64,000 nt of DNA from Escherichia phage EAWsc9: sequence record PQ341120.1. The stretch is one strand, 5' to 3'. Within the stretch, counting starts at the first letter, position 1. Each line of letters begins with the position of its first letter. The position numbers and the translations under genes were made by a program. Positions 5,737-46,659 of this stretch are shown here, one piece after another. The notes under the pieces are model-generated. The model searched no databases. It was not told where the DNA came from and saw only the letters and a program-made list of their open reading frames with translations.

Positions 5737-5789
5737 ACAGCGCTACAGGCAGCAAGGGCTAACGAGTAGCCCAAGATTTTCTTAATCAT
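5721..5789 (-). CDS. 22-aa peptide with lipobox-like LAAC (MIKKILGYSLALAACSAVMVSS)
   Basis: Shares first 14 codons with ORF 5394..5534; ATGA overlap with upstream ORF. Confidence 0.2.
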   Translation of the reverse strand: MIKKILGYSLALAACSAVMVSS

Positions 5790-5793
5790 TTTT
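5748..5793. repeat. Repeat A copy 2
   Basis: Identical to 5493..5538. Confidence 0.7.
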
Positions 5794-5944: not shown

Positions 5945-6001
5945 ATTTTCCTCAAGGGCGTCCAAAGACGCCAGTTAATTTCAGATTATGACGATGCCAT
6001 T
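5941..6001. repeat. Repeat B copy 2
   Basis: 60/61 identity to 5676..5736. Confidence 0.7.
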
Positions 6002-6033
6002 GCATCACGTGTTCATTATGGAAATTACTCATA

Positions 6034-6480
6034 TTAATAGCTCTGCAGAATGAATTTAAAGTTATCAGCAAGCATGCGATTCATTTCTGAAAGGGTCTGG
6101 CAATCAGAACTATGCGAGCGAGTGAACGCCATTGCAATTTGACCTTTACCATAACCAGTTGTCAGAGGTTTCATTTTAGAAACTGGGACAAACAGGACTT
6201 CATAGATAACCCCATTGTTCGCCATTGTGCGAGACAGTTGAGAACGTTGTTTGCGGATGTGACTTAATACAGTGTCAAACCCTTGTTGTGAACGTTGGTT
6301 ACCAACATAAAAACGTGCAGCAACAATACGTGATTCGCCTTCACCTTTAACCACGAAATAAAAACCTGGTTGAGTGATAGCTTCTTTAGTCGGACGCCCG
6401 AGATAATTACCATTATGGATGTAAGCAACAGTGGTAGCGCCAGCATTCAGTACGTCACGACGGGTCATGTAAGTAGACAT
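6034..6480 (-). CDS. ndd: Nucleoid disruption protein Ndd
   Basis: 148 aa; PGFYFVVKG...[14 protein letters not shown]...[11 protein letters not shown]...[12 protein letters not shown] matches my recollection of T4 Ndd; position between 52 and denB. Confidence 0.65.
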
Positions 6481-6524
6481 ATTAATTTCCTCAGTAAGTT
6501 AAAGTTTTGTGCTCCAGTGGGGTC

Positions 6525-6553
6525 ATTATACTCTGACCCCAAGAGTTTGTACA
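6525..6553 (-). promoter_or_regulatory. Early promoter stem-loop cassette upstream of ndd
   Basis: TGTACA-17-TATAAT with GGGGTCA/TGACCCC inverted repeat around the -10; 44-nt block identical to 17730..17773. Confidence 0.5.
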
Positions 6554-6901
6554 CTATTTTTGAAGTTGTTCTAAAATAAATCCGCTCGTATAAAAGGAAG
6601 CATTATACACCTTATTCAGCGGGGTCAAAGCGCGCTTATAGGTATTACGCAATTCTTTGATAACATTTTCATAACTCACGTAGTAAGCACTATGGTAGTA
6701 ACCTGGCTCCATACTCATACGAAATTTAATGAACCGATAAAAGCCTGTTTCCGGGTCTTGGACGAAAACGAAATCAGCACTCGTCATAACTTTTGGATGT
6801 ACGTCAGGAATCATACTTTGATTGAATGCCTCCGACGCCTCCTGAAGGCTAATCTGTTTAAAGAACATAACTTTAGCATTACCAAAAAATACTTTAGACA
6901 T
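6554..6901 (-). CDS. Hypothetical protein (115 aa)
   Basis: ORF with SD-like GGGGAAAA. Confidence 0.55.
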   Translation of the reverse strand: MSKVFFGNAKVMFFKQISLQEASEAFNQSMIPDVHPKVMTSADFVFVQDPETGFYRFIKFRMSMEPGYYHSAYYVSYENVIKELRNTYKRALTPLNKVYNASFYTSGFILEQLQK

Positions 6902-6928
6902 AATATTTTCCCCAGTAAGTAAACCTTT

Positions 6929-7075
6929 TTAAAGAACTTCTTCAATCTGAATGTACTTGCTGTAACCTTCCTCAATGAGGATATCCCGCGCACAATTTGC
7001 GCTAATATACGCATTAAAACTAAGAGTTTTAATCACTTTACCATGAAGCTTTACTTTATAAATTCTATTGTCCAT
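6929..7075 (-). CDS. Hypothetical protein (48 aa)
   Basis: SD GAGGAAAAT before ATG. Confidence 0.35.
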   Translation of the reverse strand: MDNRIYKVKLHGKVIKTLSFNAYISANCARDILIEEGYSKYIQIEEVL

Positions 7076-7090
7076 AATATTTTCCTCAGT

Positions 7091-7336
7091 TTATTCAGGG
7101 TCTACCGCGCCATCCCACAAGTCAACTTCTTCTGATGATTCCATCAGTTCATCAACCGTGAAGCACTCAGTATTATTTTCAATTGCAAAACGCTTCTGAT
7201 AAAAAGGATAATCCAAACAGTTTTCAGTGCGCACAGGGCGCTCGCTGTTATCCATTAAAGGCGAAATGCGAATCAGTTGTTGACCATTACCCAGGACAAA
7301 TTTTTCACCAACTGCAATGTCTTTAAAAAGTTTCAT
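7091..7336 (-). CDS. Hypothetical protein (81 aa)
   Basis: ORF, SD GGAGC. Confidence 0.55.
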   Translation of the reverse strand: MKLFKDIAVGEKFVLGNGQQLIRISPLMDNSERPVRTENCLDYPFYQKRFAIENNTECFTVDELMESSEEVDLWDGAVDPE

Positions 7337-7539
7337 TGCTTAGCTCCATTCCAAATTACATCAACAACAGACTTCAAACCATTATCCTGGATTTGTGTGA
7401 ACACTTCAGCAGCAATCCAGAGCTGGAAACCAATCATTGCAATGGCACCAATGAAAATCAGGATAATCATCGCCACAATAAACTTGAACATAAAGTCAAA
7501 GCGACGATTGGATTTCTGAAATTGTGAATTGTAATTCAT
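7333..7539 (-). CDS. Small membrane protein (68 aa)
   Basis: Internal ATG with SD GAGGA; hydrophobic core. Confidence 0.45.
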   Translation of the reverse strand: MNYNSQFQKSNRRFDFMFKFIVAMIILIFIGAIAMIGFQLWIAAEVFTQIQDNGLKSVVDVIWNGAKQ

Positions 7540-7549
7540 AATATTATCC

Positions 7550-7666
7550 TCAAAAGAAATAGTTAAAGTAAACACGTACATGGTCAATCATAAAAACAAT
7601 TGGGAAAATGCTCAGGACAACAAACAGTACAAACATGTTCCAAATGGCTTTAAGTAACTTTTTCAT
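7550..7666 (-). CDS. Small membrane peptide (38 aa)
   Basis: MKKLLKAIWNMFVLFVVLSIFPIVF...; downstream of promoter cassette. Confidence 0.3.
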   Translation of the reverse strand: MKKLLKAIWNMFVLFVVLSIFPIVFMIDHVRVYFNYFF

Positions 7667-7692
7667 AATCATCTCCAGTAGTTGATAGGTTC

Positions 7693-7720
7693 ATTATACT
7701 ACAACCACTGGAGATGTACA
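7693..7720 (-). promoter_or_regulatory. Early promoter (TGTACA-16-TATAAT)
   Basis: -35/-10 pattern on minus strand followed by conserved leader. Confidence 0.45.
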
Positions 7721-7811
7721 CTCTTTTACGCAAGTTTCATTAATAATAAACTAAAACAAACGCAAATTACTGGGATACACAACATCCAGATAAGACACCA
7801 GGTTTTGCTGC

Positions 7812-8078
7812 TCAAAATATCACCTCTTTGATTTCAATCAGACCCCTGTGCAATGCGGTGCGAAGGTCATAAAGAATATCTATGCCATCAACATTATCCA
7901 GTTTTCCATCAATAAGCTTTTTTAAATCTTCCTTTGATGCAACCAGCGGGCGAAGAAATTTACATTCAGAAAGAGACAATTCTGTAGTAACATCATCGCC
8001 ATCGCCTGACGCATCATACATAGCGGCAACAACCATACCTGTAACTTTGTGCTTGGCGTAATATAATTTGATATCCAT
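7812..8078 (-). CDS. Hypothetical protein (88 aa)
   Basis: ATG at 8078 with SD GAGGAAAA. Confidence 0.5.
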   Translation of the reverse strand: MDIKLYYAKHKVTGMVVAAMYDASGDGDDVTTELSLSECKFLRPLVASKEDLKKLIDGKLDNVDGIDILYDLRTALHRGLIEIKEVIF

Positions 8079-8088
8079 TCTGTTTTCC

Positions 8089-8244
8089 TCACGCATAACG
8101 ATTGTATGTATTTTTACGACAAGCGTAAAATTGACGCTCAGTAACTGCAAAACTTTTTCCGCGCTGTTGCATTAATTTAAAAAATTCAGTGATATCGCCA
8201 TTAACTTCAAGATATAAAGTCATTGCATATTGAGCAGGTTTCAT
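8089..8244 (-). CDS. Hypothetical protein (51 aa)
   Basis: ATG at 8244 with SD GGAGAATAAA, downstream of promoter cassette. Confidence 0.4.
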   Translation of the reverse strand: MKPAQYAMTLYLEVNGDITEFFKLMQQRGKSFAVTERQFYACRKNTYNRYA

Positions 8245-8283
8245 TTTATTCTCCAGGTTTGTTTGGTAACTCAGTATGGAATC

Positions 8284-8312
8284 ATTATACATAGACTCCA
8301 TACTGATGTACA
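8284..8312 (-). promoter_or_regulatory. Early promoter cassette (TGTACA-17-TATAAT + CCATACTGAGTTACC leader)
   Basis: Repeated family member. Confidence 0.5.
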
Positions 8313-8323
8313 CTACTTTTTAA

Positions 8324-8599
8324 TTAATTGTGCATTTGTTCTTTAACTTCTTTATATGCGCCAACTGCATTCACGACCCCAGTAAAATCTGCAGTCCCAC
8401 GATAGAGATAGAAAGCGATTTCAGTCAGGTGGTAGACTTCAAATTCTGAAAGATAAATGATAACGTCATAATAGGCAACTTGCCCCTGGACTTCGTTGAA
8501 TACTACATCAAAAATTTCATGGGTTGGAAAATTGATGTTGTTGTTTTTGAGTGCTTGAATAAGAATTTGTTTGATGTTATTAGTAGTAACGTGTTCCAT
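8324..8599 (-). CDS. Hypothetical protein (91 aa)
   Basis: ATG at 8599 with SD GAGGA. Confidence 0.5.
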   Translation of the reverse strand: MEHVTTNNIKQILIQALKNNNINFPTHEIFDVVFNEVQGQVAYYDVIIYLSEFEVYHLTEIAFYLYRGTADFTGVVNAVGAYKEVKEQMHN

Positions 8600-8646
8600 G
8601 ATAATGTCCTCATTTGTTGGTGTGAGGACATTATTACATGGTTGGT

Positions 8647-9240
8647 TCAGCTTGTAAACCGGTGATAGGGAAATTTTTCTTCTGAACAAGAACGGAGGTA
8701 CCAGCCATCCCCTTGTGACTTCTGCACAAGACCAGACTCAGGAACGAAAGCGCCAGGTCCAGCAAGGAATTTTGGTTTAAATCTATAACCTTTGATAGTC
8801 TCTTTTACATTAAACATAATCATAAGGTCAGCAAGCTTGTGCTGCATAAAAGGACCAAGATTGACCCCGTAACCATGCGGATAATCACCATGGCTGCCAG
8901 TGTGCACGGATATCCATTTGGAGTCAGACTGATGAGTTTTGACTTCGATTCTTACCCCTTCTTTCGAAACTACATCAAATGCAAAGGAATAAGGATTATC
9001 GTAATCTTCATCGCCACCACATAAAAAACCGGAGGTCCATTTAGCAATAGCTTGTTCAGCCATTGTAGCCACCATACATCTTTGCATGACTTGCTCACGG
9101 TCCTGGCCAGGGTCTTTACGCAATGAATACCTGGCAGTGTCTACAATCTTTTGCAGGGATTCGGGGGTTAAGTCTTCTTTTGTATAAAGAAAGGAGGGCA
9201 TCTTTTTCAGATGCTCCCATGTTTTACTCTTCTGAATCAT
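8647..9240 (-). CDS. denB: Endonuclease IV (DenB)-position protein
   Basis: 197 aa ORF between ndd and rIIB where T4 carries denB (185 aa); sequence itself not verified. Confidence 0.45.
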   Translation of the reverse strand: MIQKSKTWEHLKKMPSFLYTKEDLTPESLQKIVDTARYSLRKDPGQDREQVMQRCMVATMAEQAIAKWTSGFLCGGDEDYDNPYSFAFDVVSKEGVRIEVKTHQSDSKWISVHTGSHGDYPHGYGVNLGPFMQHKLADLMIMFNVKETIKGYRFKPKFLAGPGAFVPESGLVQKSQGDGWYLRSCSEEKFPYHRFTS

Positions 9241-9244
9241 AATG

Positions 9245-9565
9245 TCATCCTTTAAAATACATATCGGATTTTTCGATAATATCTAAAGAATTTTGCTCAG
9301 CTTGCTCTTGATAATCGCTGCCAATATAAACTTTGTCCACATGAACGACGCCATAATAAATTCTGGCACTTTCGGCTAGTGTAGAATGGTCCAGACTACG
9401 AAGTTCTTCTTTCGTTGCAAGAATGATGTCCCTCGCATATAACCGCCCAGTTGACTTTGTAGAAGCATAATGACAATCCACACAATAAACAATATCCGCA
9501 ACATGATTACCATGCAACCGGATTTCGTTAATAGATTCATCGCCAACGTTCATATAGTTAATCAT
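9245..9565 (-). CDS. Hypothetical protein (106 aa)
   Basis: ORF with SD GGTGA. Confidence 0.5.
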   Translation of the reverse strand: MINYMNVGDESINEIRLHGNHVADIVYCVDCHYASTKSTGRLYARDIILATKEELRSLDHSTLAESARIYYGVVHVDKVYIGSDYQEQAEQNSLDIIEKSDMYFKG

Positions 9566-9568
9566 AAT

Positions 9569-9766
9569 TTATTCACCAAAATAAGAGATACGGATTGCCA
9601 GTACATGAGCATATGCGCCCATCGCATCCAGTTGGGCAATCAAAAGACCTTGTTGACGGATATCAAGAGTTTCAAAAACTCCACCCTTAATAAACTCTTC
9701 AAGAGCATTAATTTTCAAAACCAGCTGGTCATATTCTTCAACTACACGTGCTTGGAAACCTAACAT
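9569..9766 (-). CDS. Hypothetical protein (65 aa)
   Basis: ORF with SD GAGG, follows hairpin. Confidence 0.45.
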   Translation of the reverse strand: MLGFQARVVEEYDQLVLKINALEEFIKGGVFETLDIRQQGLLIAQLDAMGAYAHVLAIRISYFGE

Positions 9767-9778
9767 AAAGCCTCATTA

Positions 9779-9792
9779 GGGGCCGAAGCCCC
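9779..9792 (-). promoter_or_regulatory. UUCG-tetraloop hairpin (GGGGC-UUCG-GCCCC on transcript) downstream of rIIB
   Basis: Perfect 5-bp GC stem with CGAA/UUCG loop. Confidence 0.5.
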
Positions 9793-9799
9793 GATTAAT

Positions 9800-10771
9800 T
9801 TAGAATTGTTCAGTTACATCATCAAGAACCAGGTAACCACAAACCCTCATCTTACTATCCCCATAATCCACCGGGATACTTACAACATCGCGCGGGTGAA
9901 CTTTACAGGATACGATGCGCCCATCACCATGACCAAAACCACTTCCGATATAACCTTTAGAGCAAACGTGCAACCCAGTTGAACAGGTTTGTTCGTCATT
10001 GTCATTCACACGAGAGCGCGGCATTTTAACATATTGGCCAGGGCTGTTGTCGAATGTATTTGAGTGACAATCTTTGTATGTTGCACGAACCATTTTCCAT
10101 GCGATGAAATGACCGTCTTCGGTGATTTCGATATCGTTAGCAACCAGGAAGTCAAACAAACGCTGTACTGCTTTTTCACTCGGGTTCTCAAGGAGATTCT
10201 CAAGGAATGGCAGATAGAATTCAAAGTCTTCACCATTTTGCATTGAATCAATGATACGAGTAACCAGGCCGGAGCGCAGTTCAATTCCCTGATAGAACAG
10301 ACTACCACCTTCAATACGCACATCACCTTTCACATATTTTTGCACCGCAGCTTTGATTGAGATAAACTCGATAGCATCGTCAAAACGAGATTCTTTGAGT
10401 GCCTGAATAATATCATTAAAGTGTTTATGGTCTTTTGTTGCGTTCCAGACTGTACGGCCTTCAGTGATGGAAACGAATTTGCTTGATGCGTTCCATACGA
10501 TTTCTGGGCGGCTTCCGCCGATTGTATCAGTAACCGGGACTTCAACCGTTACTGTCACCGGAGCATTAATCGCCACACCAACGGCTGCTTTCAGTGATGC
10601 AGAAATGGTTTTAGCTAATTTTGATTCTTTATCATTTTTCAAAACGCGGCGAATGGTGTCAACGGACACAGCAAAATATTCTGCCAATTCAGGCTGGGTA
10701 TAATTGCCCGTTGAATACATCTGGACCACATCAGCTTGTTCGGCTTTAGACATACATTTGATATTAAACAT
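9800..10771 (-). CDS. rIIB: rIIB protein
   Basis: 323 aa directly downstream of rIIA, size and position as T4 rIIB (312 aa). Confidence 0.8.
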   Translation of the reverse strand: MFNIKCMSKAEQADVVQMYSTGNYTQPELAEYFAVSVDTIRRVLKNDKESKLAKTISASLKAAVGVAINAPVTVTVEVPVTDTIGGSRPEIVWNASSKFVSITEGRTVWNATKDHKHFNDIIQALKESRFDDAIEFISIKAAVQKYVKGDVRIEGGSLFYQGIELRSGLVTRIIDSMQNGEDFEFYLPFLENLLENPSEKAVQRLFDFLVANDIEITEDGHFIAWKMVRATYKDCHSNTFDNSPGQYVKMPRSRVNDNDEQTCSTGLHVCSKGYIGSGFGHGDGRIVSCKVHPRDVVSIPVDYGDSKMRVCGYLVLDDVTEQF

Positions 10772-10772
10772 A

Positions 10773-13007
10773 TTATTCCTTATTGGCCGCTTCCACGGCC
10801 TTCATGATTTGAGCAACGTTCTGTACTTGTTCAGTTGACATGGCGTTACGGTTATATAAAAAGTGTGAAACAATCGGGTGATTCTTTTCAAATTCAAAAA
10901 CCATTTTATCGCTTGTTACCGAAGCGTTTTTGGTCAGGTCGTCATAAATCTTATTACAAAGGACCAGAGTTTCCTGCATGGTCTTATCAACTGTTCCACT
11001 GTTATATGCGTTATAAGCAAAGAACTTATTGAACTGCATTAATTCGGCATAGTCAGTATTCACATCTTTCTGAACATCTTTTGCATAAAAATACTTGAAC
11101 ATAAAATTCAGTTCTGCATATTCAGACAGGATAGGAATATAATAACGCGAACGGCTTGAAGCGGCAATGTACTGGTCCGCATCAACCGCATCAATCAATT
11201 CCACATAACGATTGACTGCAGCTTCAATCAGACAATCACACTGCGCCAGCTTGGTAATCTTTTTCTGAAGCTGTGGACGAATAACACAGAATTCATTGAT
11301 TTCCAACAGGTTTGCCAGTTTACACAATGTCTGGGTCCCGAAGGTCGTGGTGCCATATTCTTGATTCAACGGGGAAATGCTACTGCGGTTAATGAATACA
11401 GCATAACCATCGATTTCCTCTGCATCAGCTGCACATGTAAATTCTTCAACAGACTGCCATTTGCCATTAGTTTTAGTCCAACGAATCAATGATGGAGTCT
11501 TTGACTTAACGCGCGCTTTCGGGTCAGCAACCGGAATCCAGTCTTTTACAAGGGCGGTCAGTTCAGACGTACGATAGATATTAACTGTATCGCCTTTAAA
11601 TCGTTCTTGAAGTTGAACCATCAGACGTGTTTGAATTTCGCTGGTTGGGTCAACGAACAATAGACTACTACCTTGTACAGTCGGGACTTTACCAGATGCT
11701 TTGAGCTTTTTGGCTTTCGCGCTGGTGTCATACAGCATTGAACTGATGCCCCGAATCATCGCAATTCGCCCTTTAGCATCGTCAATAACAATGTTCAAGG
11801 TATTATTCTGAATACCAAACATGCTCGTCAGGCTTGCAGTATTCGTGTTCGAGCTTGAGTTACGCAGACGTTTCAGACGGGTAGTGCTATAGATATCATA
11901 GACAACCCCGGCATTAATAAGGTCTTTGTCCAGCTCGAACATTTCATACATCTGGTTAAAGGTCAATTGCGATTTCGTAAATTTCGTTTCAGCATTACGA
12001 GCTTTCAGAAAATTACGAGCTTCATAACTCAGACTCTGTAATTCGCGATACGTGTGGCGGATACATTCTGATTCCTGCCATTTCTTACAATCATCTTCCA
12101 TGACTTTCTTATCAAGGGATTCAATACGTTCAACGATATTTGCGACCGTACGTTTATCCAGTGATAATGCTTCGCGAGAAGGTGCAATATCCAACGAACC
12201 CATCGGGAACTTAATAAAGACAACATCATTTTTGGCAGTCATCCAGGTTTTCTTTGTATAACCGTCAGCAATTGGATAAACAATTCCACCGTAAATTGCA
12301 TAAAGACCATAACGTTCTGGGCTGCTATAATCAATACGCTCTGGAGCATAATAATCATCAAATTCCGGGAAATAATTAATTTCGCCTACGCCTTGTACTT
12401 CAGCCAGTCCAGCAAATGGACGCATGATATATGCAATCTCGTGGCGGAACTTACCAAAATCATTACTATCAACCGGGACAACAACTTCAATCCCTGTGCG
12501 GTCGCCAGGTTTCATTGGTTCGCTAAAGGTTGGCTTAATCTGTGGACCATCACCATCCATATAAGCGACATAACCATTAACTTGACCATCATGATACGAA
12601 ATCAGGCTAAACGTCTCTGTATAACTGAACGGAGATTTAGAGCCCAAACCAAAGCCGCCAATAAAATCATTAGATTCAGCCTTGGATGATGCAAAGAAAC
12701 TGTTATACAGACCTGGAGTGTTTTCATCACCACGAATCTGGAAATCACTCATACCTGGACCAAAGTCACGACACACAAAACGTGGGTCCAGTTCACCAGG
12801 AGCCTGAACAATGAATTTATCCTGACAGCCATTGAGCATATGAGCATCAATCATATTGGTAATCAGCTCACGAACAACCGCGCGCACCTTATTTGTATAA
12901 AGGTCACTGGTCAGAATCTTAAACACCTTTGGAGATGCCTGGATTGTGAATGCTGATGCCTTGGCACCATTACCAAGGATTGTTTCCTTTTCAGTTTCTA
13001 AAATCAT
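10773..13007 (-). CDS. rIIA: rIIA protein (GHKL ATPase-like N-terminus)
   Basis: 744 aa; N-terminal ELITNMIDA...DFGPGM...GGFGLGSKS motifs of GHKL fold; between rIIB and topoisomerase 39 as in T4. Confidence 0.85.
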   Translation of the reverse strand: MILETEKETILGNGAKASAFTIQASPKVFKILTSDLYTNKVRAVVRELITNMIDAHMLNGCQDKFIVQAPGELDPRFVCRDFGPGMSDFQIRGDENTPGLYNSFFASSKAESNDFIGGFGLGSKSPFSYTETFSLISYHDGQVNGYVAYMDGDGPQIKPTFSEPMKPGDRTGIEVVVPVDSNDFGKFRHEIAYIMRPFAGLAEVQGVGEINYFPEFDDYYAPERIDYSSPERYGLYAIYGGIVYPIADGYTKKTWMTAKNDVVFIKFPMGSLDIAPSREALSLDKRTVANIVERIESLDKKVMEDDCKKWQESECIRHTYRELQSLSYEARNFLKARNAETKFTKSQLTFNQMYEMFELDKDLINAGVVYDIYSTTRLKRLRNSSSNTNTASLTSMFGIQNNTLNIVIDDAKGRIAMIRGISSMLYDTSAKAKKLKASGKVPTVQGSSLLFVDPTSEIQTRLMVQLQERFKGDTVNIYRTSELTALVKDWIPVADPKARVKSKTPSLIRWTKTNGKWQSVEEFTCAADAEEIDGYAVFINRSSISPLNQEYGTTTFGTQTLCKLANLLEINEFCVIRPQLQKKITKLAQCDCLIEAAVNRYVELIDAVDADQYIAASSRSRYYIPILSEYAELNFMFKYFYAKDVQKDVNTDYAELMQFNKFFAYNAYNSGTVDKTMQETLVLCNKIYDDLTKNASVTSDKMVFEFEKNHPIVSHFLYNRNAMSTEQVQNVAQIMKAVEAANKE

Positions 13008-13014
13008 GTTTTTC

Positions 13015-13218
13015 TCACTTTATGTTACGTTTGATTAATTCTGCAACTTCAAGAAGTTCATCCTTTGTTGCGGTGTCTGAAGCTATTTTAATACGGATTT
13101 CTTTGAAGCGTTCTTTAAACTCTTCAGCTTCTCTTATATCAAAAAATCGTTGGATAACACGGTATTCTTTATGGACAGCTTTATCAAACAGTTCCATATT
13201 AACTTTGAAGTTTGTCAT
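13015..13218 (-). CDS. Hypothetical protein (67 aa), rIIA.1 position
   Basis: ATG at 13218 with SD AGGAGA. Confidence 0.45.
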   Translation of the reverse strand: MTNFKVNMELFDKAVHKEYRVIQRFFDIREAEEFKERFKEIRIKIASDTATKDELLEVAELIKRNIK

Positions 13219-13483
13219 TTCCAATCTCCTGCAATATTTTTCTCATACTACGCATGGTAGCTTTATGTTCTTGGCCATGGTATATCAATGCAAGGAGTGC
13301 TTCAATTCGCTCCTCAGGGACCTTCTGGCCAGCCTTAATGCTCATGGCTGCTGTTCTTACAGCCAACAAGTAACTTCGCTTCCTGTCGCTATCTGGGAGC
13401 TCCTGTACCTTCCTCAGGCCTGCTTCCATAATACACCGGGCGACATTTTGCAGATTAACTAAACTTCCGTCAGACATAATCAT
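13199..13483 (-). CDS. Hypothetical protein (94 aa)
   Basis: SD GAGGTGA before ATG. Confidence 0.5.
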   Translation of the reverse strand: MIMSDGSLVNLQNVARCIMEAGLRKVQELPDSDRKRSYLLAVRTAAMSIKAGQKVPEERIEALLALIYHGQEHKATMRSMRKILQEIGNDKLQS

Positions 13484-13529
13484 ATTTTCACCTCAAGGAT
13501 ATCCTAACGCACTTTTTACAGCTTGTACA

Positions 13530-13557
13530 TAATAAAAAAAAAGGACCCGAAGGTCCT
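13530..13557 (-). terminator. UUCG-hairpin terminator (AGGACC-UUCG-GGUCCU + U9)
   Basis: Stem-loop followed by 9-nt U-run on minus transcript. Confidence 0.6.
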
Positions 13558-13562
13558 TTTGG

Positions 13563-13715
13563 CTACTCAACTTTATAGACTTGCCCATATGCGGTATAGT
13601 ATTCGCCATCCCAAGTCTCGCACATAATGGTGACAAAGGATGCAAACAGAGGTTTAGTATCGGCCCACAGATAACCGTATTCGCCATTTGACAACGTAAC
13701 CCACCACTTTTTCAT
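13563..13715 (-). CDS. Hypothetical protein (50 aa)
   Basis: MKKWWVTLSNGEYGYLW...; SD AGGAGA; replaces track ORF 13493..13687 in another frame. Confidence 0.4.
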   Translation of the reverse strand: MKKWWVTLSNGEYGYLWADTKPLFASFVTIMCETWDGEYYTAYGQVYKVE

Positions 13716-13757
13716 GGACTTCTCCTATAAGACGGGAGAATATTCTCCCACATCTAT

Positions 13758-15590
13758 TTATAGTGTCGCATTCATCCAATCTTTACGCTGCTGGGAATCT
13801 TTACCGAAGAGCATTTCGAACAGTTCTTTCCAGTTGTCGGGCAATTGAACAACTTCGAATACTGGTTCGAGCAATACGCGTTTGTACTCAGCATCTTCCA
13901 GAGAACCAAGTCCCTTTATATATCTGATAGTATGCTTCGGAAGTTTATCCTTAGCTTCTTCATAATCAGGAAGAGAATAAAACCATTCTTGTTTATCTTT
14001 GAGCTGCGCAATAATAACAGGAGTTTTCACAAAGCGAATTCGTCCTTCATGGAACAGCTCTGGCCAGTTACTGAAAAACGCCAATAACGATGGATAGATA
14101 CTACCGACGCCATCCACATCCGCATCTGTCATGATAGCAATGTTTCGGTAATTCATATTCTCGGCCGGTTGTCCAATCGTTAACCCAGTAATTGCACACA
14201 CATCAAAGGCTTCGGCGTTCTTCATAACATCAACAGCTTTCAGGCCCCATGTGTTTTTAAACTTACCACGTAACGGATAAGCACCTTGCAATTCACGGTC
14301 GCGAACCTTGATAAATGGCCCGGTTGCAGAATCACCTTCGGTCAGGAATAGAGTCGTTTCCAGCTTATCATTGCCCCATTCGTTGGCCTTGATATGCTTT
14401 TGCACCTTGGCCTTTGAAGCTTTCTTATTCGCCTTGGTCTCTGCTGCTTTCTCTGCAGCCAATTTACGGGCTAATGCAGCTTCAACAATCGGCATAATCA
14501 GCGGTTCATTTTTCAGAATAGCTTGCGCGATTTTCTTGGCATCAATCTTAATGTGATTTCGAATTTCACCAGCCGGAGAAGTCAATCGCTCCTTAGTCTG
14601 GGAATCAAATCGCATGTTGCTCATATCGCGAATGAACATAAGCATGGTGAGGCATTCCTTAACTCGTGCCTTTGTCACCTCAATGCCTTTATATTTGCGT
14701 TTAATGGCTGGCTGAAGATGTTCACAGATATCATCCATAACACATTCAACGTGGTGTCCACCATTCTTTGTATGAATGTTGTTGACATAAGTCAACTGGC
14801 GGAAACCATCCGGGCTAGTCGTAAAGGCCATCGATACTGTATCAGTTTCCTGGATAACAACTTCGGTTCCGAATTGCTTGGCGAACTTCTTGAAATTGCC
14901 ATCAACCTTTTTACCATTAAAGGTAAACTGAATATCTGGATAAACAACCGCAAGAGTCTGCAGACGGTCCAATGTAATATCCAGATAAATCTGGGACAGG
15001 CTATTTTCTTCAAAGTGACTGAAGTCCGGAACAAAAATAACAGTTGTACCTTTACCCTTAGATTTCTTGGTAGACCAACCTTTGTTTTCCATACCATTGG
15101 AGCAGTTAACGGTGATTTCATTTGCGCCGTCGGCGGTAATCCCGGTGAACAATACAGAGAAAATATTGGTCAGAGAAGACCCGACGCCATTCATCCCACC
15201 AGTTTTACGTTCAGCATCATCACCGAAGTTACCACCTGCTTTTGGAATAGTCCATGCTGCAACCGGGCCAGGGATTTGTTCACCGTTTTGGTCTGTAACC
15301 ATTGCTTGTGGAATACCACGGCCATTATCGGAAACCGAAATCTGATTATCTTTAATTTGGACATCAATTTTATTGGCAAATTTAAAACTGGTGCGAATTG
15401 CTTCATCAACAGAGTTATCGATAATTTCATCAATCAGTTTTACAATACCAGGAACATAGCTTACGGACTTATATTCACCAAACAAGAATCGCTCATGCGC
15501 TTCATTTGAACTGGAACCAATATACATCCCGGAACGTTTTTTGATATGCTCGACGTCCGAGAGTACTTTAATTTCATTATTAATCATCAT
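13758..15590 (-). CDS. 39: DNA topoisomerase II large subunit, fused gp39+gp60 (GyrB-like)
   Basis: 610 aa; GHKL ATPase motifs, TOPRIM-like region; length equals T4 gp39+gp60 combined, so the gene is unsplit here. Confidence 0.93.
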   Translation of the reverse strand: MMINNEIKVLSDVEHIKKRSGMYIGSSSNEAHERFLFGEYKSVSYVPGIVKLIDEIIDNSVDEAIRTSFKFANKIDVQIKDNQISVSDNGRGIPQAMVTDQNGEQIPGPVAAWTIPKAGGNFGDDAERKTGGMNGVGSSLTNIFSVLFTGITADGANEITVNCSNGMENKGWSTKKSKGKGTTVIFVPDFSHFEENSLSQIYLDITLDRLQTLAVVYPDIQFTFNGKKVDGNFKKFAKQFGTEVVIQETDTVSMAFTTSPDGFRQLTYVNNIHTKNGGHHVECVMDDICEHLQPAIKRKYKGIEVTKARVKECLTMLMFIRDMSNMRFDSQTKERLTSPAGEIRNHIKIDAKKIAQAILKNEPLIMPIVEAALARKLAAEKAAETKANKKASKAKVQKHIKANEWGNDKLETTLFLTEGDSATGPFIKVRDRELQGAYPLRGKFKNTWGLKAVDVMKNAEAFDVCAITGLTIGQPAENMNYRNIAIMTDADVDGVGSIYPSLLAFFSNWPELFHEGRIRFVKTPVIIAQLKDKQEWFYSLPDYEEAKDKLPKHTIRYIKGLGSLEDAEYKRVLLEPVFEVVQLPDNWKELFEMLFGKDSQQRKDWMNATL

Positions 15591-15612
15591 CTTTCCTCTT
15601 GTGTATGGAGGT

Positions 15613-15637
15613 ATTATAAGTCACATATTTTAAAGCA
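15613..15637 (-). promoter_or_regulatory. MotA-box middle promoter upstream of gene 39
   Basis: Minus strand TGCTTTA, 12 nt, TATAAT. Confidence 0.5.
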
Positions 15638-15640
15638 AAA

Positions 15641-15655
15641 AGGCCCGAAGGCCTT
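15641..15655 (-). terminator. UUCG-hairpin (AGGCC-UUCG-GGCCU) with U-run
   Basis: Stem-loop followed by UUUUUGCUUU on minus transcript. Confidence 0.5.
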
Positions 15656-16057
15656 TTATTTGAATCGAAGCTGCTCTAACATTTTAATAGCTTGTAGGCG
15701 CCCGGCTTCAGTTTTAACCGTAATAATAACATCGCCACCGGTAACAACGATATCCTCTTTTGATTCCTGTTCGGTTATTTCAGAATCACATTCCTTTGGG
15801 GTTTCTTCAAAATATTTAAATTCATCACCAAAAATAAGACCGGTTCCATTACGACTATGGAAAGAAAATCCAGTTCCATCGATAGTACTAAATTCCGTCA
15901 CAACATTTGCTTCCATCTTGGTGACTGAAAACTCTTTGGTAGTAATCAAATCAATGATAGAGGTTCCTTGCTGGTTCAAAATGCAACCGGGCATACCGAC
16001 ATGTTTAAGGAAGCCATCTAAATCTTTAATGCAATAACTCTTTCCAATTTTAAACAT
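15656..16057 (-). CDS. Hypothetical protein (133 aa)
   Basis: ATG at 16057 with SD GAGGA. Confidence 0.5.
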   Translation of the reverse strand: MFKIGKSYCIKDLDGFLKHVGMPGCILNQQGTSIIDLITTKEFSVTKMEANVVTEFSTIDGTGFSFHSRNGTGLIFGDEFKYFEETPKECDSEITEQESKEDIVVTGGDVIITVKTEAGRLQAIKMLEQLRFK

Positions 16058-16064
16058 AATATCC

Positions 16065-16325
16065 TCATTCAAATCGGATGGTTGAATTCTTGAACAACAA
16101 ACCAGAACAAACAGTTCCTTCAACTTTCTTACCAGTTGGACCCACGGCCGTAAAGCCTGTGTGTTGGAAATCATCTTTACCACAAGAGAACCAATTATAT
16201 CCGGTGATTTGGATTTGCTCATAGCCGTTTGCATCTAATACACGAATGGCGTTATCTGCATCAGTACAACCAGCTAATGAAACCGCCAGCACCAGCGCTG
16301 CAATAGAACGATTAATGTATTTCAT
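16065..16325 (-). CDS. Putative lipoprotein (86 aa)
   Basis: Signal peptide MKYINRSIAALVLAVSLAGC with lipobox LAGC. Confidence 0.55.
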   Translation of the reverse strand: MKYINRSIAALVLAVSLAGCTDADNAIRVLDANGYEQIQITGYNWFSCGKDDFQHTGFTAVGPTGKKVEGTVCSGLLFKNSTIRFE

Positions 16326-16331
16326 AATTTC

Positions 16332-16508
16332 TCACTTAGTCAGCAGGTCGTAAAAACCGCCATTAACATGTTTAGGGGCCGAGACTAACCGAACAGCCAG
16401 CCGATGGCAATCAGGACAAACATCATTATCTCTTTCAGAGATTTTCTTGATTTTTTCGTATTCTTTCGCGCAGTCATTGGATTGACATTTGTAATCATAA
16501 AGTGGCAT
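16332..16508 (-). CDS. FmdB-family-like zinc-ribbon protein (58 aa)
   Basis: MPLYDYKCQSNDC...CPDCH: MPxYxYxC...CxxC pattern of FmdB zinc ribbons; below track size cutoff. Confidence 0.45.
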   Translation of the reverse strand: MPLYDYKCQSNDCAKEYEKIKKISERDNDVCPDCHRLAVRLVSAPKHVNGGFYDLLTK

Positions 16509-16509
16509 G

Positions 16510-16881
16510 TTATTCCTTAAAGTGTGCTTTCAACATCTGGTAAACGGTCCAGGCTTCGGAGTTATTAGTGATGGTGATTTTAGTCAAAGGGAATTCGCTT
16601 GGCTCAGATGGAGCTGCGTCTTCGCATTCATCTTCAGTATCGTCATCTTTTTCTTCTTCAAAGAAACGGAATTCGTCTTCCTTTATGAATAGGCTCACAA
16701 ATTCACCAGTTGATAATTCCATTTTATACACATCACCATCTTCAATTCTGACTGGTCTAAATCCCTCGCCATTGATTATAGCATTGGCTATATTATCATT
16801 ATCTGTGCATAACAAACGGAATCTGCTTTCAGCAACATTATCTTTAAAATAATACCACTTATCAGTTTCAAATTTAGACAT
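16510..16881 (-). CDS. Hypothetical acidic protein (123 aa)
   Basis: ATG at 16881 with SD AAGGAGA. Confidence 0.5.
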   Translation of the reverse strand: MSKFETDKWYYFKDNVAESRFRLLCTDNDNIANAIINGEGFRPVRIEDGDVYKMELSTGEFVSLFIKEDEFRFFEEEKDDDTEDECEDAAPSEPSEFPLTKITITNNSEAWTVYQMLKAHFKE

Positions 16882-17098
16882 TATAAATCTCCTTCCAAAA
16901 ATCTGTACCATCTTCTGATTCTTCGCGGAACAGCGCATAGCTAGGAAGTTCTGCGTCTTTGTCTGTATACACATAAATGATATCAGTGGTGCAAAGAAAT
17001 TCATTGATGTTTTTCTTCACAATCACTTTATCACTTTCGGCAGTGTCCCAAAACTCTTCAGCGGTCAGGGAAGTGGTCACACAATCTTCATTAAACAT
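16874..17098 (-). CDS. Hypothetical protein (74 aa)
   Basis: SD GAGGAGA before ATG. Confidence 0.5.
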   Translation of the reverse strand: MFNEDCVTTSLTAEEFWDTAESDKVIVKKNINEFLCTTDIIYVYTDKDAELPSYALFREESEDGTDFWKEIYNV

Positions 17099-17144
17099 AA
17101 TATTCTCCTCATTGATAGGGCAAAAACCCTATCATTTTTATAAT

Positions 17145-17699
17145 TTAGGCAAAATGAATATCAGCATACTCAACGATAAAGCTCTCAGGAACAACCTTAA
17201 AGGTTCCAAGGAACACGATATTATACAGTTTGACCCCTTCTTCAACCCACTGGTCTGTGATGTAACCAGACATGCTAGTGGTTTCATAAGTCGGACCATA
17301 CATGCAATTGTATTCAAACGGTTTAGGTGAAACAAAAAAGACACCTTTGCCCAATTTCCATTTAAAATCAACCCCAACATGAGACTGGTCAATGGTTTCA
17401 ACGTCTTGAGCAATTACGCCACGAATATCATTACTTTCGCACACATATCCATCATGGGATTCAACTTCTTCAGACACAGGAGCGATATATCCAGTAAATT
17501 CGGTTGATTCTAGGAATTTAGGATGCACATAAGCCAATTGAGTTTCAGTCTGACCATTTTTAGGAATGATACGCACTTTAACTTCTTTAATTCCACCTAC
17601 TAAATTAGTGCGAAGACCCACAACCTCAACAAAACGACCAGCAGCTTTAGAACGAGATTCTTTAGAAACACGTACAATATCACCAGCTTCAACTTTCAT
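17145..17699 (-). CDS. Hypothetical protein (184 aa), paralog family with 17779..18534
   Basis: C-terminal GYITDQWVEEGVKLYNIVFLGTFKVVPESFIVEY shared with the next gene. Confidence 0.65.
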   Translation of the reverse strand: MKVEAGDIVRVSKESRSKAAGRFVEVVGLRTNLVGGIKEVKVRIIPKNGQTETQLAYVHPKFLESTEFTGYIAPVSEEVESHDGYVCESNDIRGVIAQDVETIDQSHVGVDFKWKLGKGVFFVSPKPFEYNCMYGPTYETTSMSGYITDQWVEEGVKLYNIVFLGTFKVVPESFIVEYADIHFA

Positions 17700-17741
17700 A
17701 ATTTTCTCTCTTGGTTAATAAGTTTATTCTCCAGTGGGGTC

Positions 17742-17770
17742 ATTATACTCTGACCCCAAGAGTTTGTACA
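17742..17770 (-). promoter_or_regulatory. Early promoter stem-loop cassette
   Basis: 44-nt block identical to ndd promoter region. Confidence 0.5.
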
Positions 17771-17778
17771 CTTTAAAT

Positions 17779-18534
17779 TTAATTAAAAATTTCAACAACC
17801 ATGGAACGTGGTACAACAGTAAATTCACCAGCGTGGACAACGTTCAGGAGTTCAACACCATCTTCAATCCACTGGTCTGTTACCCAACCACAAATGGAAC
17901 TGTTAAATGGGCGTTTGATTTGAACTGGTTTGCATAACAAGTCAATAGGGTCACCCAGTTCGCTAACTTCTTCCAGAAGTACAGATTCACGCGGATAAAG
18001 GATAGCTTCAAGATTGTCACCTGATTCATTGACTGCAGTAAATTCAAAGATGCTTTGGTGATTGTGGTACTTAACTGTTTTAACGGTAAATGGAGCAAAT
18101 CCAAAAATACCTTTCAGTACCCGCCAACCAGCATGCATTGCGACAGTCTTTCCAAACTGACTGGCATCTTCAATAAGCTGATAGGTTTTACCAACTTTGA
18201 TAGGAATTTCTTCAACTTCTTTGAAGAGTACAATCTCAGCTTCATAAATCATAATTTTTTCTACTTCATTAGTATCAAGGCGACGTGCATGCAGAATATA
18301 TGCGTTATCAAACCAGTTACTTTTTACAAAAGTTTCAACAATAAATTCGCCTTTACCCAAAGCATCAACCAGAGTATTATACCCTAAAACCATAGCTGCG
18401 TTTTGAACAATAGGTTCAATCAGTTGATAAGTTTTGTTAATTTCAATAGTCATATTTTGTTTCTCAAGTTTTAATGGTTTAATTGGACACACGTAAGTGC
18501 TTACAACATCAAAGTCAATAAATTCTGGTTTCAT
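17779..18534 (-). CDS. Hypothetical protein (251 aa), paralog of 17145..17699 with internal repeat
   Basis: C-terminal CGWVTDQWIEDGVELLNVVHAGEFTVVPRSMVVEI; KTYQLIE motif occurs twice. Confidence 0.65.
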   Translation of the reverse strand: MKPEFIDFDVVSTYVCPIKPLKLEKQNMTIEINKTYQLIEPIVQNAAMVLGYNTLVDALGKGEFIVETFVKSNWFDNAYILHARRLDTNEVEKIMIYEAEIVLFKEVEEIPIKVGKTYQLIEDASQFGKTVAMHAGWRVLKGIFGFAPFTVKTVKYHNHQSIFEFTAVNESGDNLEAILYPRESVLLEEVSELGDPIDLLCKPVQIKRPFNSSICGWVTDQWIEDGVELLNVVHAGEFTVVPRSMVVEIFN

Positions 18535-46587: not shown

Positions 46588-46659
46588 GATATATTCCTCA
46601 GTCTCATTAAATTAAAATTTTATTATCCTGGGGCCATTATACCATGACCCCGTTGATTT

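What the first reader, a model, noticed from the sequence alone, without database searches (positions are those of the whole stretch)
6503..17773. Identical 44-nt promoter stem-loop block at two distant loci
CTCCAGTGGGGTCATTATACTCTGACCCCAAGAGTTTGTACACT occurs identically at about 6503..6556 (upstream of ndd) and about 17730..17773 (upstream of 17145..17699). It contains TGTACA-17-TATAAT on the minus strand with a perfect GGGGTCA/TGACCCC inverted repeat enclosing the -10. Perfect identity across 11 kb implies recent copying or strong constraint, and such blocks are plausible substrates for homologous recombination.
Basis: seen in the sequence. Interest (0 to 1): 0.45.

Follow-up and report, generated by a model that had tools for sequence, protein, structure and literature searches.

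The report
Duplicated early-promoter hairpin cassette in phage
The two identical 44-base blocks are copies of one early-promoter cassette of a T4-like phage, of a kind already described as a "promoter-early stem-loop", sitting in front of the genes ndd and motB; the repeat is real, but it is a new example of a known element rather than a new kind of thing.

Summary
Confirmed. The 44-nt block occurs exactly twice, at 6512-6555 and 17729-17772, 11,217 nt apart, with 0 matches in 100 shuffles.

- **Setting.** The window is a Gaprivervirus (VR7/SP18-like T4-type phage). All genes here are on the minus strand. The blocks fill the intergenic gaps upstream of ndd and motB.
- **Anatomy (sense strand).** -35 TGTACA, 17-nt spacer, -10 TATAAT. 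A 7-8 bp stem (GGGGTCA/TGACCCC) holds TATAA in its 8-nt loop. Three nt later comes GGAG plus an A-rich tail.
- **Homology.** The T4 motB promoter is 83% identical, with compensatory stem changes (GGGACCA/TGGTCCC). Its GGAGUAUAAAA is the published model substrate of the RegB/S1 endoribonuclease.
- **Stem support.** Across 18 cassette variants from three genera the stem pairs in 98.4% of cells. Every transition-type departure is G·U on the sense strand, never A·C, which points to an RNA hairpin in read-through transcripts.
- **Copying.** The motB copy is polymorphic among relatives while the ndd copy is nearly fixed. A third family member is a ~60-nt indel in some genomes. The identity therefore reflects copying or gene conversion of a mobile cassette, not constraint alone.

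This matches the PeSL class (Arbiol 2010; Comeau 2014). Verdict: new member of a known kind, modest interest.

The parts
6512..6555 (-). Copy A of the 44-nt cassette core (-35 through GGAG), in the gap between ORF 6554..6901 and ndd
   Evidence: Exact match; intergenic position
6548..6553 (-). Copy A -35 hexamer TGTACA
   Evidence: 10 of 12 matches to the sigma-70 consensus, 17-nt spacer
6525..6530 (-). Copy A -10 hexamer TATAAT; its first five bases lie in the hairpin loop and its last T is the first base of the right arm
6534..6540 (-). Copy A left stem arm GGGGTCA, inside the promoter spacer
   Evidence: covariation
6519..6525 (-). Copy A right stem arm TGACCCC; the predicted transcription start is about 6518
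   Evidence: the start site is inferred from sigma-70 spacing rules
6505..6515 (-). Copy A RegB/S1-like site GGAGCACAAAA (10 of 11 to GGAGRAYARAA, but with disfavoured C at positions 5 and 7). It is not the Shine-Dalgarno sequence.
   Evidence: consensus and position rules from PMC1702504 and PMC3014915
6034..6480 (-). ndd gene driven by copy A
   Evidence: PF06591, E=1e-68
17729..17772 (-). Copy B of the 44-nt cassette core, in the gap between motB.1 (17779..18534) and motB
   Evidence: Exact match
17765..17770 (-). Copy B -35 hexamer TGTACA
17742..17747 (-). Copy B -10 hexamer TATAAT
17751..17757 (-). Copy B left stem arm GGGGTCA
17736..17742 (-). Copy B right stem arm TGACCCC
17722..17732 (-). 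Copy B RegB/S1-like site GGAGAATAAAC (10 of 11). It is positionally homologous to the T4 motB leader site GGAGUAUAAAA, which RegB cleaves in vivo and in vitro.
   Evidence: PMC1702504 section 14
17145..17699 (-). motB gene driven by copy B
   Evidence: PF17613, E=1e-49
46618..46651 (-). Related module with the same geometry: stem GGGGTCA(T)/(A)TGGCCCC (one U·G pair) around TGGTATAAT, followed after 1 nt by a perfect GGAUAAUAAAA. It has no recognisable -35.
   Evidence: (-15.1 kcal/mol, z -3.4)

Best explanation
Each block is the core of a composite early-gene regulatory cassette of the PeSL (promoter-early stem-loop) type in a Gaprivervirus, a T4-like phage.

1. **Promoter.** It is a strong sigma-70-type early promoter (TGTACA-17-TATAAT) that fires leftward on the minus strand into ndd (copy A) or motB (copy B). 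This is inferred from the sequence and from orthology to the T4 motB early promoter.

2. **Hairpin.** The inverted repeat around the -10 is a selected hairpin that folds in sense-strand RNA. The promoter's own transcript should start at about the last base of the right arm, so only transcripts reading through from upstream early promoters (at 7720 and 18851) contain both arms. In those transcripts the hairpin most likely acts as an attenuator and/or as a 3'-end cap for the upstream message. That function is inferred.

3. **RegB site.** The GGAG plus A-rich tail, 3 nt after the stem, is a RegB/S1 endoribonuclease site in the leader and is distinct from the Shine-Dalgarno sequence.
   - In the promoter's own transcript it sits at about +4. 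Cleavage there would strip the 5' triphosphate and hand the mRNA to the PNK and RNase G/E decay pathway.
   - In read-through RNA, cleavage would leave the upstream mRNA ending in the hairpin.
   - Cleavage has been shown for the T4 homologue and is inferred here.

4. **Why the copies are identical.** The cassette was copied between the two intergenic sites by short-patch homologous recombination or gene conversion, most likely from the ndd site into the motB site. Function does not require that exact sequence.
For: **Repeat and anatomy:**

**Genes and orientation:**

**Genome identity:** (Gaprivervirus).

**Promoter family:**
- 17 strong minus-strand candidates of the same -35/-10 type lie in the window.
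- 5 of them have -10-enclosing stems at p<0.05 against shuffles; others have stems at the -35 or in the spacer.

**Orthology to T4:** the T4 motB-upstream region is 83% identical.

**Stem covariation:**
- 18 distinct cassette variants from Gapriver-, Tequatro- and Dhakavirus pair in 98.4% of cells.
- 4 of 7 pairs carry double-sided changes (22 cells).
- Slid controls pair in 50% of cells or fewer.

**Strand of the structure:** at least 10 independent single-sided departures are G·U on the sense strand and none is A·C.

**Read-through is possible:** no terminator-like site lies between the upstream promoters and the blocks.

**RegB:**
- The T4 motB leader GGAGUAUAAAA is the minimal RegB/S1 substrate and is cut in vivo (PMC1702504).
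- regB is annotated in Gaprivervirus SP18.
- The perfect consensus occurs 9 times in the window, all on the minus strand, against 1.07 expected.
- All three non-Shine-Dalgarno sites are directly preceded by a -10-enclosing hairpin; the background rate is 3%.

**Copying:**
- The ndd copy is near-invariant, while the motB copy has four stem types whose distribution is mosaic relative to the flanks.
- In Dhakavirus the ndd and motB cassettes resemble each other (11 of 16 spacer bases). The Gaprivervirus ndd cassette is less similar to the Dhakavirus one (6 of 16), although the flanks are orthologous.
- A third family member is a ~60-nt indel in TH44, TH41 and VR26.

**Class description:** PMC2839356 section 14 and PMC4122927.
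Against: - No experiment on this phage supports any step. Promoter activity, start site, RNA folding and RegB cleavage are all inferred.
- The hairpin has no T-run, so it fails the intrinsic-terminator pattern. Its effect on read-through RNA is unknown.
- The ndd copy's RegB-like tail has C at positions 5 and 7, which PMC1702504 reports as rare or absent in cleaved T4 RNAs. That site may be a poor substrate.
- The sequences in the covariation table passed a filter requiring at least 6 of 7 pairs, so the 98.4% is partly by construction. All positional orthologues from the three genera did pass the filter; Mosigvirus has a different architecture.
- Ectopic conversion cannot be told apart from allelic recombination between co-infecting phages for the mosaic motB alleles.
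- No large-scale mosaic breakpoint maps exactly onto either block.
Confidence: 0.7

Rival explanations
1. The two copies are identical only because every base of the 44-mer is under strong purifying selection, as independent conservation of an optimal promoter, and no copying took place between the sites.
For: The ndd copy is almost invariant across about 30 Gaprivervirus records. The -35, the -10 and the CTCTTGGG segment are shared with T4.
Against: The motB site tolerates four different stem sequences in close relatives, and the third cassette uses GGGAGCA/TGCTCCC. Other strong promoters in the window have unrelated spacers. T4 and VR25/VR26 share the TGGTCCC right arm at motB, so the window's motB allele differs from that state at 3 linked positions, and its sequence is exactly that of the ndd copy.
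Confidence: 0.1
2. The inverted repeat is a DNA-level signal rather than an RNA hairpin. It would be a palindromic operator for a dimeric regulator, for example one involved in early-promoter shut-off, or a cruciform or hairpin target for a recombination protein.
For: It overlaps the -10, where a bound protein would block RNA polymerase. The mechanism of T4 early-promoter shut-off is unresolved (PMC3014915). Arbiol et al. speculated that GGGG...CCCC stems could be bound by a recombination protein.
Against: - One genome (TH44) carries three cassettes with different stems: two are perfect stems of different sequence and one has a central U·U mismatch. A sequence-specific protein would not read all of them.
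- Departures from pairing are strand-asymmetric, G·U on the sense strand and never A·C. A duplex operator or a two-sided cruciform does not predict this.
- Arms of 7-8 bp with an 8-nt loop are short for cruciform extrusion (established knowledge).
Confidence: 0.1
3. The hairpin's main job is to terminate transcription coming from upstream, so that ndd and motB are insulated transcription units. This is the classical PeSL terminator reading.
For: The stem-loop of one RB49 PeSL cut reporter expression about as much as rrnB T1 (PMC2839356 section 14). The hairpin here is stable, with fold energies of -19.8 and -19.3 kcal/mol for the intergenic RNA (z -2.8 and -2.6).
Against: The stem is followed by ACUGGAG(A/C)A... 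and has no U-run, so it is not picked up by the terminator scan. This reading does not explain why a RegB-type site directly follows the stem at three loci here and at the promoter-less T4 ndd hairpin.
Confidence: 0.15
4. The repeat is a chance match or an assembly artefact.
For: None found.
Against: There were 0 matches in 100 shuffles. Both copies are present at the same two loci in independent genome records.
Confidence: 0.01

Closest known systems
PeSL (promoter-early stem-loop) cassettes of T4-type phages: RB49/phi1 (Arbiol et al. 2010, PMC2839356); T4/PST and KVP40/nt-1 (Comeau et al. 2014, PMC4122927)
   Same: [quoted passage not shown]
- Strong sigma-70-like -35/-10 with a 17-nt spacer and an AT-rich upstream region.
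- G-run/C-run stem-loop; 'overlapping the -10 box' is one of the two commonest published positions.
- Many copies per genome, lying near indels, and proposed as recombination substrates.
   Different: - A different genus (Gaprivervirus), with -35 TGTACA rather than TTGACA (RB49) or TTTACW (T4/PST).
- In T4/PST the published stems sit just upstream of the promoter; here the loop is the -10 itself.
- The stem is followed directly by a RegB-type site, a link not made in those papers.
- No functional or mini-circle data exist for this phage.
T4 motB early promoter and its leader RegB site (Durand et al. 2006, PMC1702504)
   Same: - Positional orthologue of copy B, 83% identical.
- Same -10-in-loop hairpin with compensated stem.
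- GGAG 2-3 nt after the stem, followed by an A-rich tail.
- The T4 site is cut by RegB/S1 in vivo and in vitro.
   Different: - Stem GGGACCA/TGGTCCC rather than GGGGTCA/TGACCCC.
- Tail UAUAAAA rather than AAUAAAC.
- -35 GTTTAC rather than TGTACA.
- In the T4-like loci examined (L021-L026), the gap upstream of ndd holds an unrelated hairpin and no promoter, not a second copy of the cassette.
T4 transcript-origin-dependent hairpins, in which a promoter lies inside a hairpin-coding region (for example gene e; reviewed in PMC3014915 section 29)
   Same: A promoter is nested in a region encoding an RNA hairpin. Transcripts from upstream therefore fold, and transcripts from the inner promoter do not.
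   Different: In those cases a late promoter is involved and the hairpin sequesters the translation-initiation region. Here it is an early promoter, and the Shine-Dalgarno sequence lies 20-30 nt beyond the hairpin and is not sequestered.
Rho-independent (intrinsic) terminators
   Same: A G+C-rich hairpin in an intergenic region.
   Different: There is no U-run after the stem, so the pattern is not met.

Membership tests
PeSL (promoter-early stem-loop) | Sigma-70-like -35 and -10 boxes with a spacer of about 17 nt | tested here: met
   TGTACA-17-TATAAT, 10 of 12 consensus matches, at both copies
PeSL (promoter-early stem-loop) | A stable stem-loop within or next to the promoter (published positions include overlapping the -10) | tested here: met
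   7-8 bp perfect stem with an 8-nt loop holding TATAA. Fold energies -19.8 and -19.3 kcal/mol, z -2.8 and -2.6. Covariation.
PeSL (promoter-early stem-loop) | [quoted passage not shown] | tested here: met
   Copy A lies between 6554..6901 and ndd; copy B lies between motB.1 and motB. AT-rich upstream sequence is visible.
PeSL (promoter-early stem-loop) | Repeated family in the variable early regions, associated with insertions, deletions and replacements | tested here: met
   17 candidates in 64 kb, all on the minus strand. A third cassette is an indel polymorphism. A hypervariable ORF lies next to copy A. Breakpoints do not fall exactly on the two blocks.
PeSL (promoter-early stem-loop) | Demonstrated promoter and attenuator activity, and mini-circle formation by recombination between copies | not testable with these tools
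   Needs reporter fusions and inverse PCR on infected cells
T4-type early promoter (orthologue of the T4 motB promoter) | Sequence and positional homology to the T4 motB-upstream promoter | tested here: met
   83% identity over 53 nt at the motB.1-motB gap of T4
RegB/S1 cleavage site | GGA(G/U) followed by RAYARAA, unpaired, in an early transcript | tested here: inconclusive
   The motB copy GGAGAATAAAC and the ndd copy GGAGCACAAAA each match 10 of 11 positions. The ndd copy has C at positions 5 and 7, disfavoured according to PMC1702504. In the read-through fold GGAG pairs with an upstream CUCU, but that pairing shows no covariation.
RegB/S1 cleavage site | The phage encodes RegB | tested here: met
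   regB is annotated in Gaprivervirus SP18 (SP18gp116). By synteny the gene would lie about 2 kb beyond the window's end, so it was not seen in the window itself.
RegB/S1 cleavage site | regB-dependent cleavage between GG and AG | not testable with these tools
   Shown only for the T4 homologue (PMC1702504)
Intrinsic terminator | G+C-rich hairpin followed by a run of T | tested here: not met
   The stem is followed by ACTGGAG..., and neither block is listed by the terminator scan
Any Rfam RNA family | Match at the gathering threshold | tested here: not met
   0 matches in the whole window

The most novel reading that the evidence does not exclude
The hairpin and the RegB site directly after it form one conserved RNA-processing module, with the promoter nested in its loop, so that the fate of a transcript depends on where it started.

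- **Transcripts from the cassette's own promoter** begin at the end of the right arm, cannot fold, and expose GGAG at about +4. RegB then removes the triphosphate end, and PNK plus RNase G/E time the decay of ndd or motB mRNA.
- **Read-through transcripts** fold the hairpin, and RegB cleavage 2-3 nt downstream leaves the upstream message with a hairpin-capped 3' end.

Supporting observations: the same hairpin-plus-GGAG arrangement survives upstream of ndd in the T4-like loci examined, which have no promoter there, and pairing is maintained specifically on the sense strand.
Probability: 0.3. Interest if true: 0.5.

Novelty: new member of a known kind. Interest (0 to 1): 0.3.

Why it matters
- It extends the PeSL concept to another T4-like genus. 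It also gives clean comparative evidence that the stem in these cassettes is selected as a sense-strand RNA hairpin: compensatory changes across three genera, with G·U but never A·C intermediates. The original papers did not show this.
- It links the cassette to a well-characterised RegB site, the T4 motB leader. That suggests a concrete, testable role for a hairpin that is not a canonical terminator.
- It shows short regulatory cassettes being copied and homogenised between distant intergenic sites. This is relevant to how T4-like genomes shuffle small early genes.
- None of this overturns current understanding.

Tried and rejected
1. **First palindrome search.** The initial search used a 9-nt gap and found nothing. 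The gap is 8 nt, and this was corrected.
2. **Breakpoints at the blocks.** Blast comparison with VR20, VR25, VR26 and seven TH genomes showed alignments running straight through both blocks. Breaks lie at 6914/7073, 7336/7535 and 17407/17457. The sharp identity drop next to copy A starts 45-60 nt upstream, inside ORF 6554..6901. 'Breakpoint at the block' was therefore rejected as stated.
3. **Intrinsic terminator.** Rejected for lack of a T-run.
4. **Extension of the stem by CUCU:GGAG pairing.** It is predicted in the minimum-energy fold but is not kept in Dhakavirus or in the GGAU cassettes, and it shows no covariation. It is left open.
5. **Rfam scan of the whole window.** Nothing found.
6. 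**IMG/VR scans.** They returned only three Gaprivervirus genomes, so GenBank records were fetched one by one.
7. **Literature.** The Miller 2003 T4 genome review is not held. A search for T4 start-site or 3'-end maps found nothing usable, as did a search for Gaprivervirus promoter descriptions.
8. **DCP80 record (141 kb).** It was checked as a possible cassette-mediated deletion. It simply holds the ndd region twice and was not pursued.

Full report
**1. Observation**

The 44-mer occurs exactly twice, at window 6512-6555 and 17729-17772. No further hit appears at up to 3 mismatches, and none appeared in 100 dinucleotide-preserving shuffles. The copies are 11,217 nt apart, and similarity runs to 50 nt at 96% (family D7). 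Its description of the block is otherwise correct: TGTACA-17-TATAAT on the minus strand, with GGGGTCA/TGACCCC around the -10.

**2. Setting**

The window is from a Gaprivervirus, the VR7/SP18 group of T4-like phages. The flanks are 96-99% identical to pEC-M719-6WT.2, TH40 and vB_YenM_P8. All genes around both blocks are on the minus strand.

- Copy A fills most of the 73-nt gap between ORF 6554..6901 and ndd (6034..6480; Pfam Phage_T4_Ndd, E=1e-68).
- Copy B fills most of the 79-nt gap between motB.1 (17779..18534) and motB (17145..17699; Pfam motB, E=1e-49).

**3. Anatomy on the sense (minus) strand**

The block reads AG-TGTACA-AACTCTTGGGGTCAGAG-TATAAT-GACCCCACTGGAG.

- The left stem arm GGGGTCA lies in the spacer.
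- The 8-nt loop GAGTATAA carries five of the six -10 bases.
- The right arm TGACCCC starts with the last T of TATAAT.
- A flanking T-A pair makes the stem 8 bp.
- Three nucleotides after the stem comes GGAG, where the identity between the copies ends. The tails are AATAAAC (motB) and CACAAAA (ndd).
- The real ribosome-binding sites lie 20-30 nt further on.

By sigma-70 spacing the promoter's own transcript should start at about the last base of the right arm. This is an inference. It means the hairpin cannot form in that transcript, only in RNA arriving from upstream promoters. The nearest upstream promoters are at 7720 and 18851, and no terminator-like site lies in between.

**4. The blocks belong to a promoter family**

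The window holds 17 strong candidates of the type T(G/T)TACA-16/17-TAnnAT followed by a ribosome-binding site, all on the minus strand.

- Five have -10-enclosing stems that beat shuffles at p<0.05: 6553, 17770, 8312, 7720 and 57686.
- Others have stems around the -35 (30128, 47780) or in the spacer (34129).

This is the published description of PeSLs. They are composite intergenic cassettes made of a strong sigma-70-like early promoter plus a stem-loop, often GGGG...CCCC. The two commonest stem positions are between the boxes or overlapping the -10. PeSLs are proposed to attenuate upstream transcription and to serve as recombination linkers (PMC2839356 section 14; PMC4122927).

**5. Comparative evidence for the stem**

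The T4 motB-upstream gap is 83% identical to the block. Its stem is GGGACCA/TGGTCCC, which amounts to two compensated pair changes. Other variants found were:

| Site and genomes | Stem |
|---|---|
| motB, Gaprivervirus VR25, VR26, TH41 | GGGGCCA/TGGTCCC |
| motB, TH57 | GGGGTCG/TGACCCC |
| motB, TH44 | GGGTCCA/TGGTCCC (one U·U mismatch) |
| Third cassette, TH44 | GGGAGCA/TGCTCCC |
| Third cassette, VR26, TH41 | GGGAGCA/TGTTCCC |
| motB, Dhakavirus | GAGAGCCA/TGGCTCTC, with variants GAGGGCCA and GAGAGCTA |
| ndd, Dhakavirus | CGAGAATCA/TGGTTCTCG |

All keep an 8-nt NNNTATAA loop.

On an ungapped alignment of 18 distinct variants, the 7-bp helix pairs in 98.4% of cells. Four pairs show double-sided changes (22 cells). 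Slid controls pair in 50% of cells or fewer. One caveat applies: the sequences were collected with a filter of at least 6 of 7 pairs. Every positional orthologue from these three genera passed that filter. Mosigvirus (RB69, JK45) has a different layout, with a 5-bp stem in the spacer and GGAG directly 5' of the -10.

Every transition-type departure from Watson-Crick pairing that I found is G·U or U·G on the sense strand, and none is A·C. There are at least 10 such cases, counting the related stems at 7720 and 8312 and the T4-type ndd hairpin. Three transversion mismatches also occur. This asymmetry argues for a hairpin in sense-strand RNA. It argues against a duplex protein site or a two-sided cruciform.

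**6. The GGAG is a RegB-type site**

In T4 the motB mRNA is efficiently cut by the phage endoribonuclease RegB. The minimal substrate ends with GGAGUAUAAAA (PMC1702504 section 14). That sequence sits 2 nt after the T4 hairpin. The consensus for strong sites is GG*AGRAYARAA (PMC3014915).

- The window's motB copy has GGAGAAUAAAC and the ndd copy has GGAGCACAAAA. Both match 10 of 11 positions. The ndd tail has C at positions 5 and 7, which the paper reports as rare or absent in cleaved RNAs.
- regB is annotated in Gaprivervirus SP18.
- Perfect consensus sites occur 9 times in the window, all on the minus strand, against 1.07 expected. All lie in leaders downstream of early promoters.
- Of 14 sites with at most one mismatch, the three that are not Shine-Dalgarno sequences (6515, 17732, 46628) are each preceded within 1-2 nt by a -10-enclosing hairpin. 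The background rate for such a hairpin is 3%.
- The T4-like loci examined have no promoter upstream of ndd, yet still carry a hairpin (GGCCGC-loop-GCGGCC) followed by UUGGAGUAGAAAA.

The published pathway is as follows. RegB leaves a 5'-OH end. T4 PNK phosphorylates it, and RNase G/E then degrade the RNA in the 5'-to-3' direction. The 3' phosphatase activity of PNK exposes upstream fragments to PNPase.

**7. Copying and recombination**

The ndd copy is essentially fixed across Gapriverviruses, whereas the motB copy has four stem types. These stem types are distributed mosaically with respect to three types of 5' flank. T4 and VR25/VR26 share the TGGTCCC right arm at motB. The window's motB allele differs from that at three linked positions and is exactly the ndd sequence. 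The simplest account is a short conversion tract of at least 44 nt from the ndd copy into the motB site. Allelic recombination between co-infecting phages then spread it, or its absence.

Dhakavirus shows the same pattern. Its ndd and motB cassettes resemble each other (11 of 16 spacer bases). Its ndd cassette is less similar to the Gaprivervirus ndd cassette (6 of 16), although the flanks are clearly orthologous.

A third family member is present or absent as a ~60-nt insertion in one intergenic slot. It is present in TH44, TH41 and VR26. The slot is empty in TH54, TH57, VR25 and VR20. In the window, TH40 and pEC-M719 the slot holds a 48-codon ORF flanked by repeats of the translation-initiation motif.

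No large mosaic boundary coincides exactly with either block. Next to copy A, identity to most relatives falls from 94-98% in ndd to 30-65% in the centre of ORF 6554..6901. The change happens 45-60 nt upstream of the block, so the block is part of a ~100-nt conserved linker rather than the breakpoint itself.

**8. Mechanism and rivals**

Best-supported reading: a PeSL-type early promoter cassette. It contains a selected sense-RNA hairpin that acts on read-through transcripts (attenuation and/or 3'-end capping) and a leader RegB site. The cassette was duplicated or homogenised by short-patch recombination.

- *Shown here:* the repeat, its anatomy, its homology to the T4 motB promoter and RegB site, stem covariation, strand asymmetry, polymorphism, and the indel status of family members.
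- *Inferred:* promoter activity, the start site, folding in vivo, RegB cleavage in this phage, the hairpin's effect, and the direction of conversion.

The rivals are less likely: constraint only, a DNA operator or cruciform, a pure terminator, and chance. Reasons are given under each.

**9. Novelty**

Both the element class (PeSL) and the T4 orthologue's promoter and RegB site are in the literature. The new details are:
- the Gaprivervirus instance and its ndd/motB duplication;
- the cross-genus covariation with sense-strand G·U bias;
- the recurrent hairpin-then-RegB-site arrangement.

These are not a new kind of system. Rfam holds no matching family.

Noticed in passing
window 5492-6004: A tandem duplication of about 255-265 nt lies just downstream of ndd (5492-5538 = 5747-5793 at 100%; 5676-5739 vs 5941-6004 at 97%). 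The closest relative, pEC-M719-6WT.2, lacks window 5740-5940, so the window carries an extra copy of a small-ORF unit in the region that record annotates as 'acridine resistance'.
   Followed up: partly
window 6915-7100 (ORF 6929..7075, minus strand): A 48-codon ORF is an insertion flanked by direct repeats of the translation-initiation motif (ACTGAGGAAAATATTATG / ACTGGGGAAAATATTATG). The same slot is empty in TH54, TH57, VR25 and VR20. It holds a third motB-type promoter cassette in TH44, TH41 and VR26, and the ORF sits elsewhere in VR20, TH22 and TH55.
   Followed up: yes
window 6554-6901 (minus-strand ORF upstream of copy A): The centre of this ORF (about 6850-6600) is only 30-65% identical to most Gapriverviruses, while both ends, the cassette and ndd are 90-100% identical. 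At least three allelic forms exist. Pfam finds no family.
   Followed up: partly
L021-L026 about 1440-1470 (T4-like contigs, upstream of ndd): The T4-type phages examined have no promoter upstream of ndd. They do have a hairpin GGCCGC-loop-GCGGCC followed by UUGGAGUAGAAAA. The loop is reverse-complemented between contigs (GTATTCAT vs ATGAATAC), which looks like a hairpin-loop inversion.
   Followed up: no
window 3786, 8244, 18791, 22886, 30073, 43806, 46618, 57621, 58205 (11-mers, minus strand): Nine perfect matches to the RegB/S1 consensus GGAKRAYARAA, all on the minus strand, against 1.07 expected. [quoted passage not shown]
   Followed up: partly
window 18785-18857, 22885-22950, 47730-47784, 62525-62579: Another promoter family (D1) has a conserved leader. 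At 18801 it forms the hairpin CTCATCA-ACTAC-TGATGAG, downstream of the -10 and so inside the promoter's own transcript, ending on the GAGGA Shine-Dalgarno / GGAUAACAAAA site. The other members keep only part of the stem.
   Followed up: no
window 3818-3873, 8266-8321, 57640-57695, 58229-58284; L035, L036, L047: In the 8312-type family, the segment downstream of the -10 (GATTCCATACTGAGTTAC) is conserved even in copies whose spacer is not complementary to it. The hairpin is therefore optional in that family, and the transcribed start region is conserved for some other reason.
   Followed up: no
L028 (RB69) and L033 (JK45), upstream of motB: The RB69 (Mosigvirus) and JK45 motB promoters have a 5-bp stem in the spacer and GGAG directly 5' of the -10 (GGAGTATAAA/T). 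The sequence homologous to the T4 leader RegB site appears to serve as the -10 region there.
   Followed up: no
PQ671644.1 (Escherichia phage DCP80, 140,978 bp): This unusually short Gaprivervirus record holds the ndd region at two places (about 33.6-34.9 kb and 137.4-137.8 kb). This could be terminal redundancy left in the assembly or a rearrangement.
   Followed up: partly
window 17227-17274 vs 17849-17896: motB and the upstream motB.1 are paralogues: a 48-nt stretch is 77% identical, and the C-terminus of motB.1 hits Pfam motB at E=1e-8. Copy B therefore sits between two related genes.
   Followed up: no
window 6548-6577 and 3859-3888 (+ strand): TGTACA is its own reverse complement, so the -35 box also yields weak plus-strand promoter-like matches (TGTACA-18-TAAAAT) pointing away from the genes. 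These are probably chance matches.
   Followed up: no
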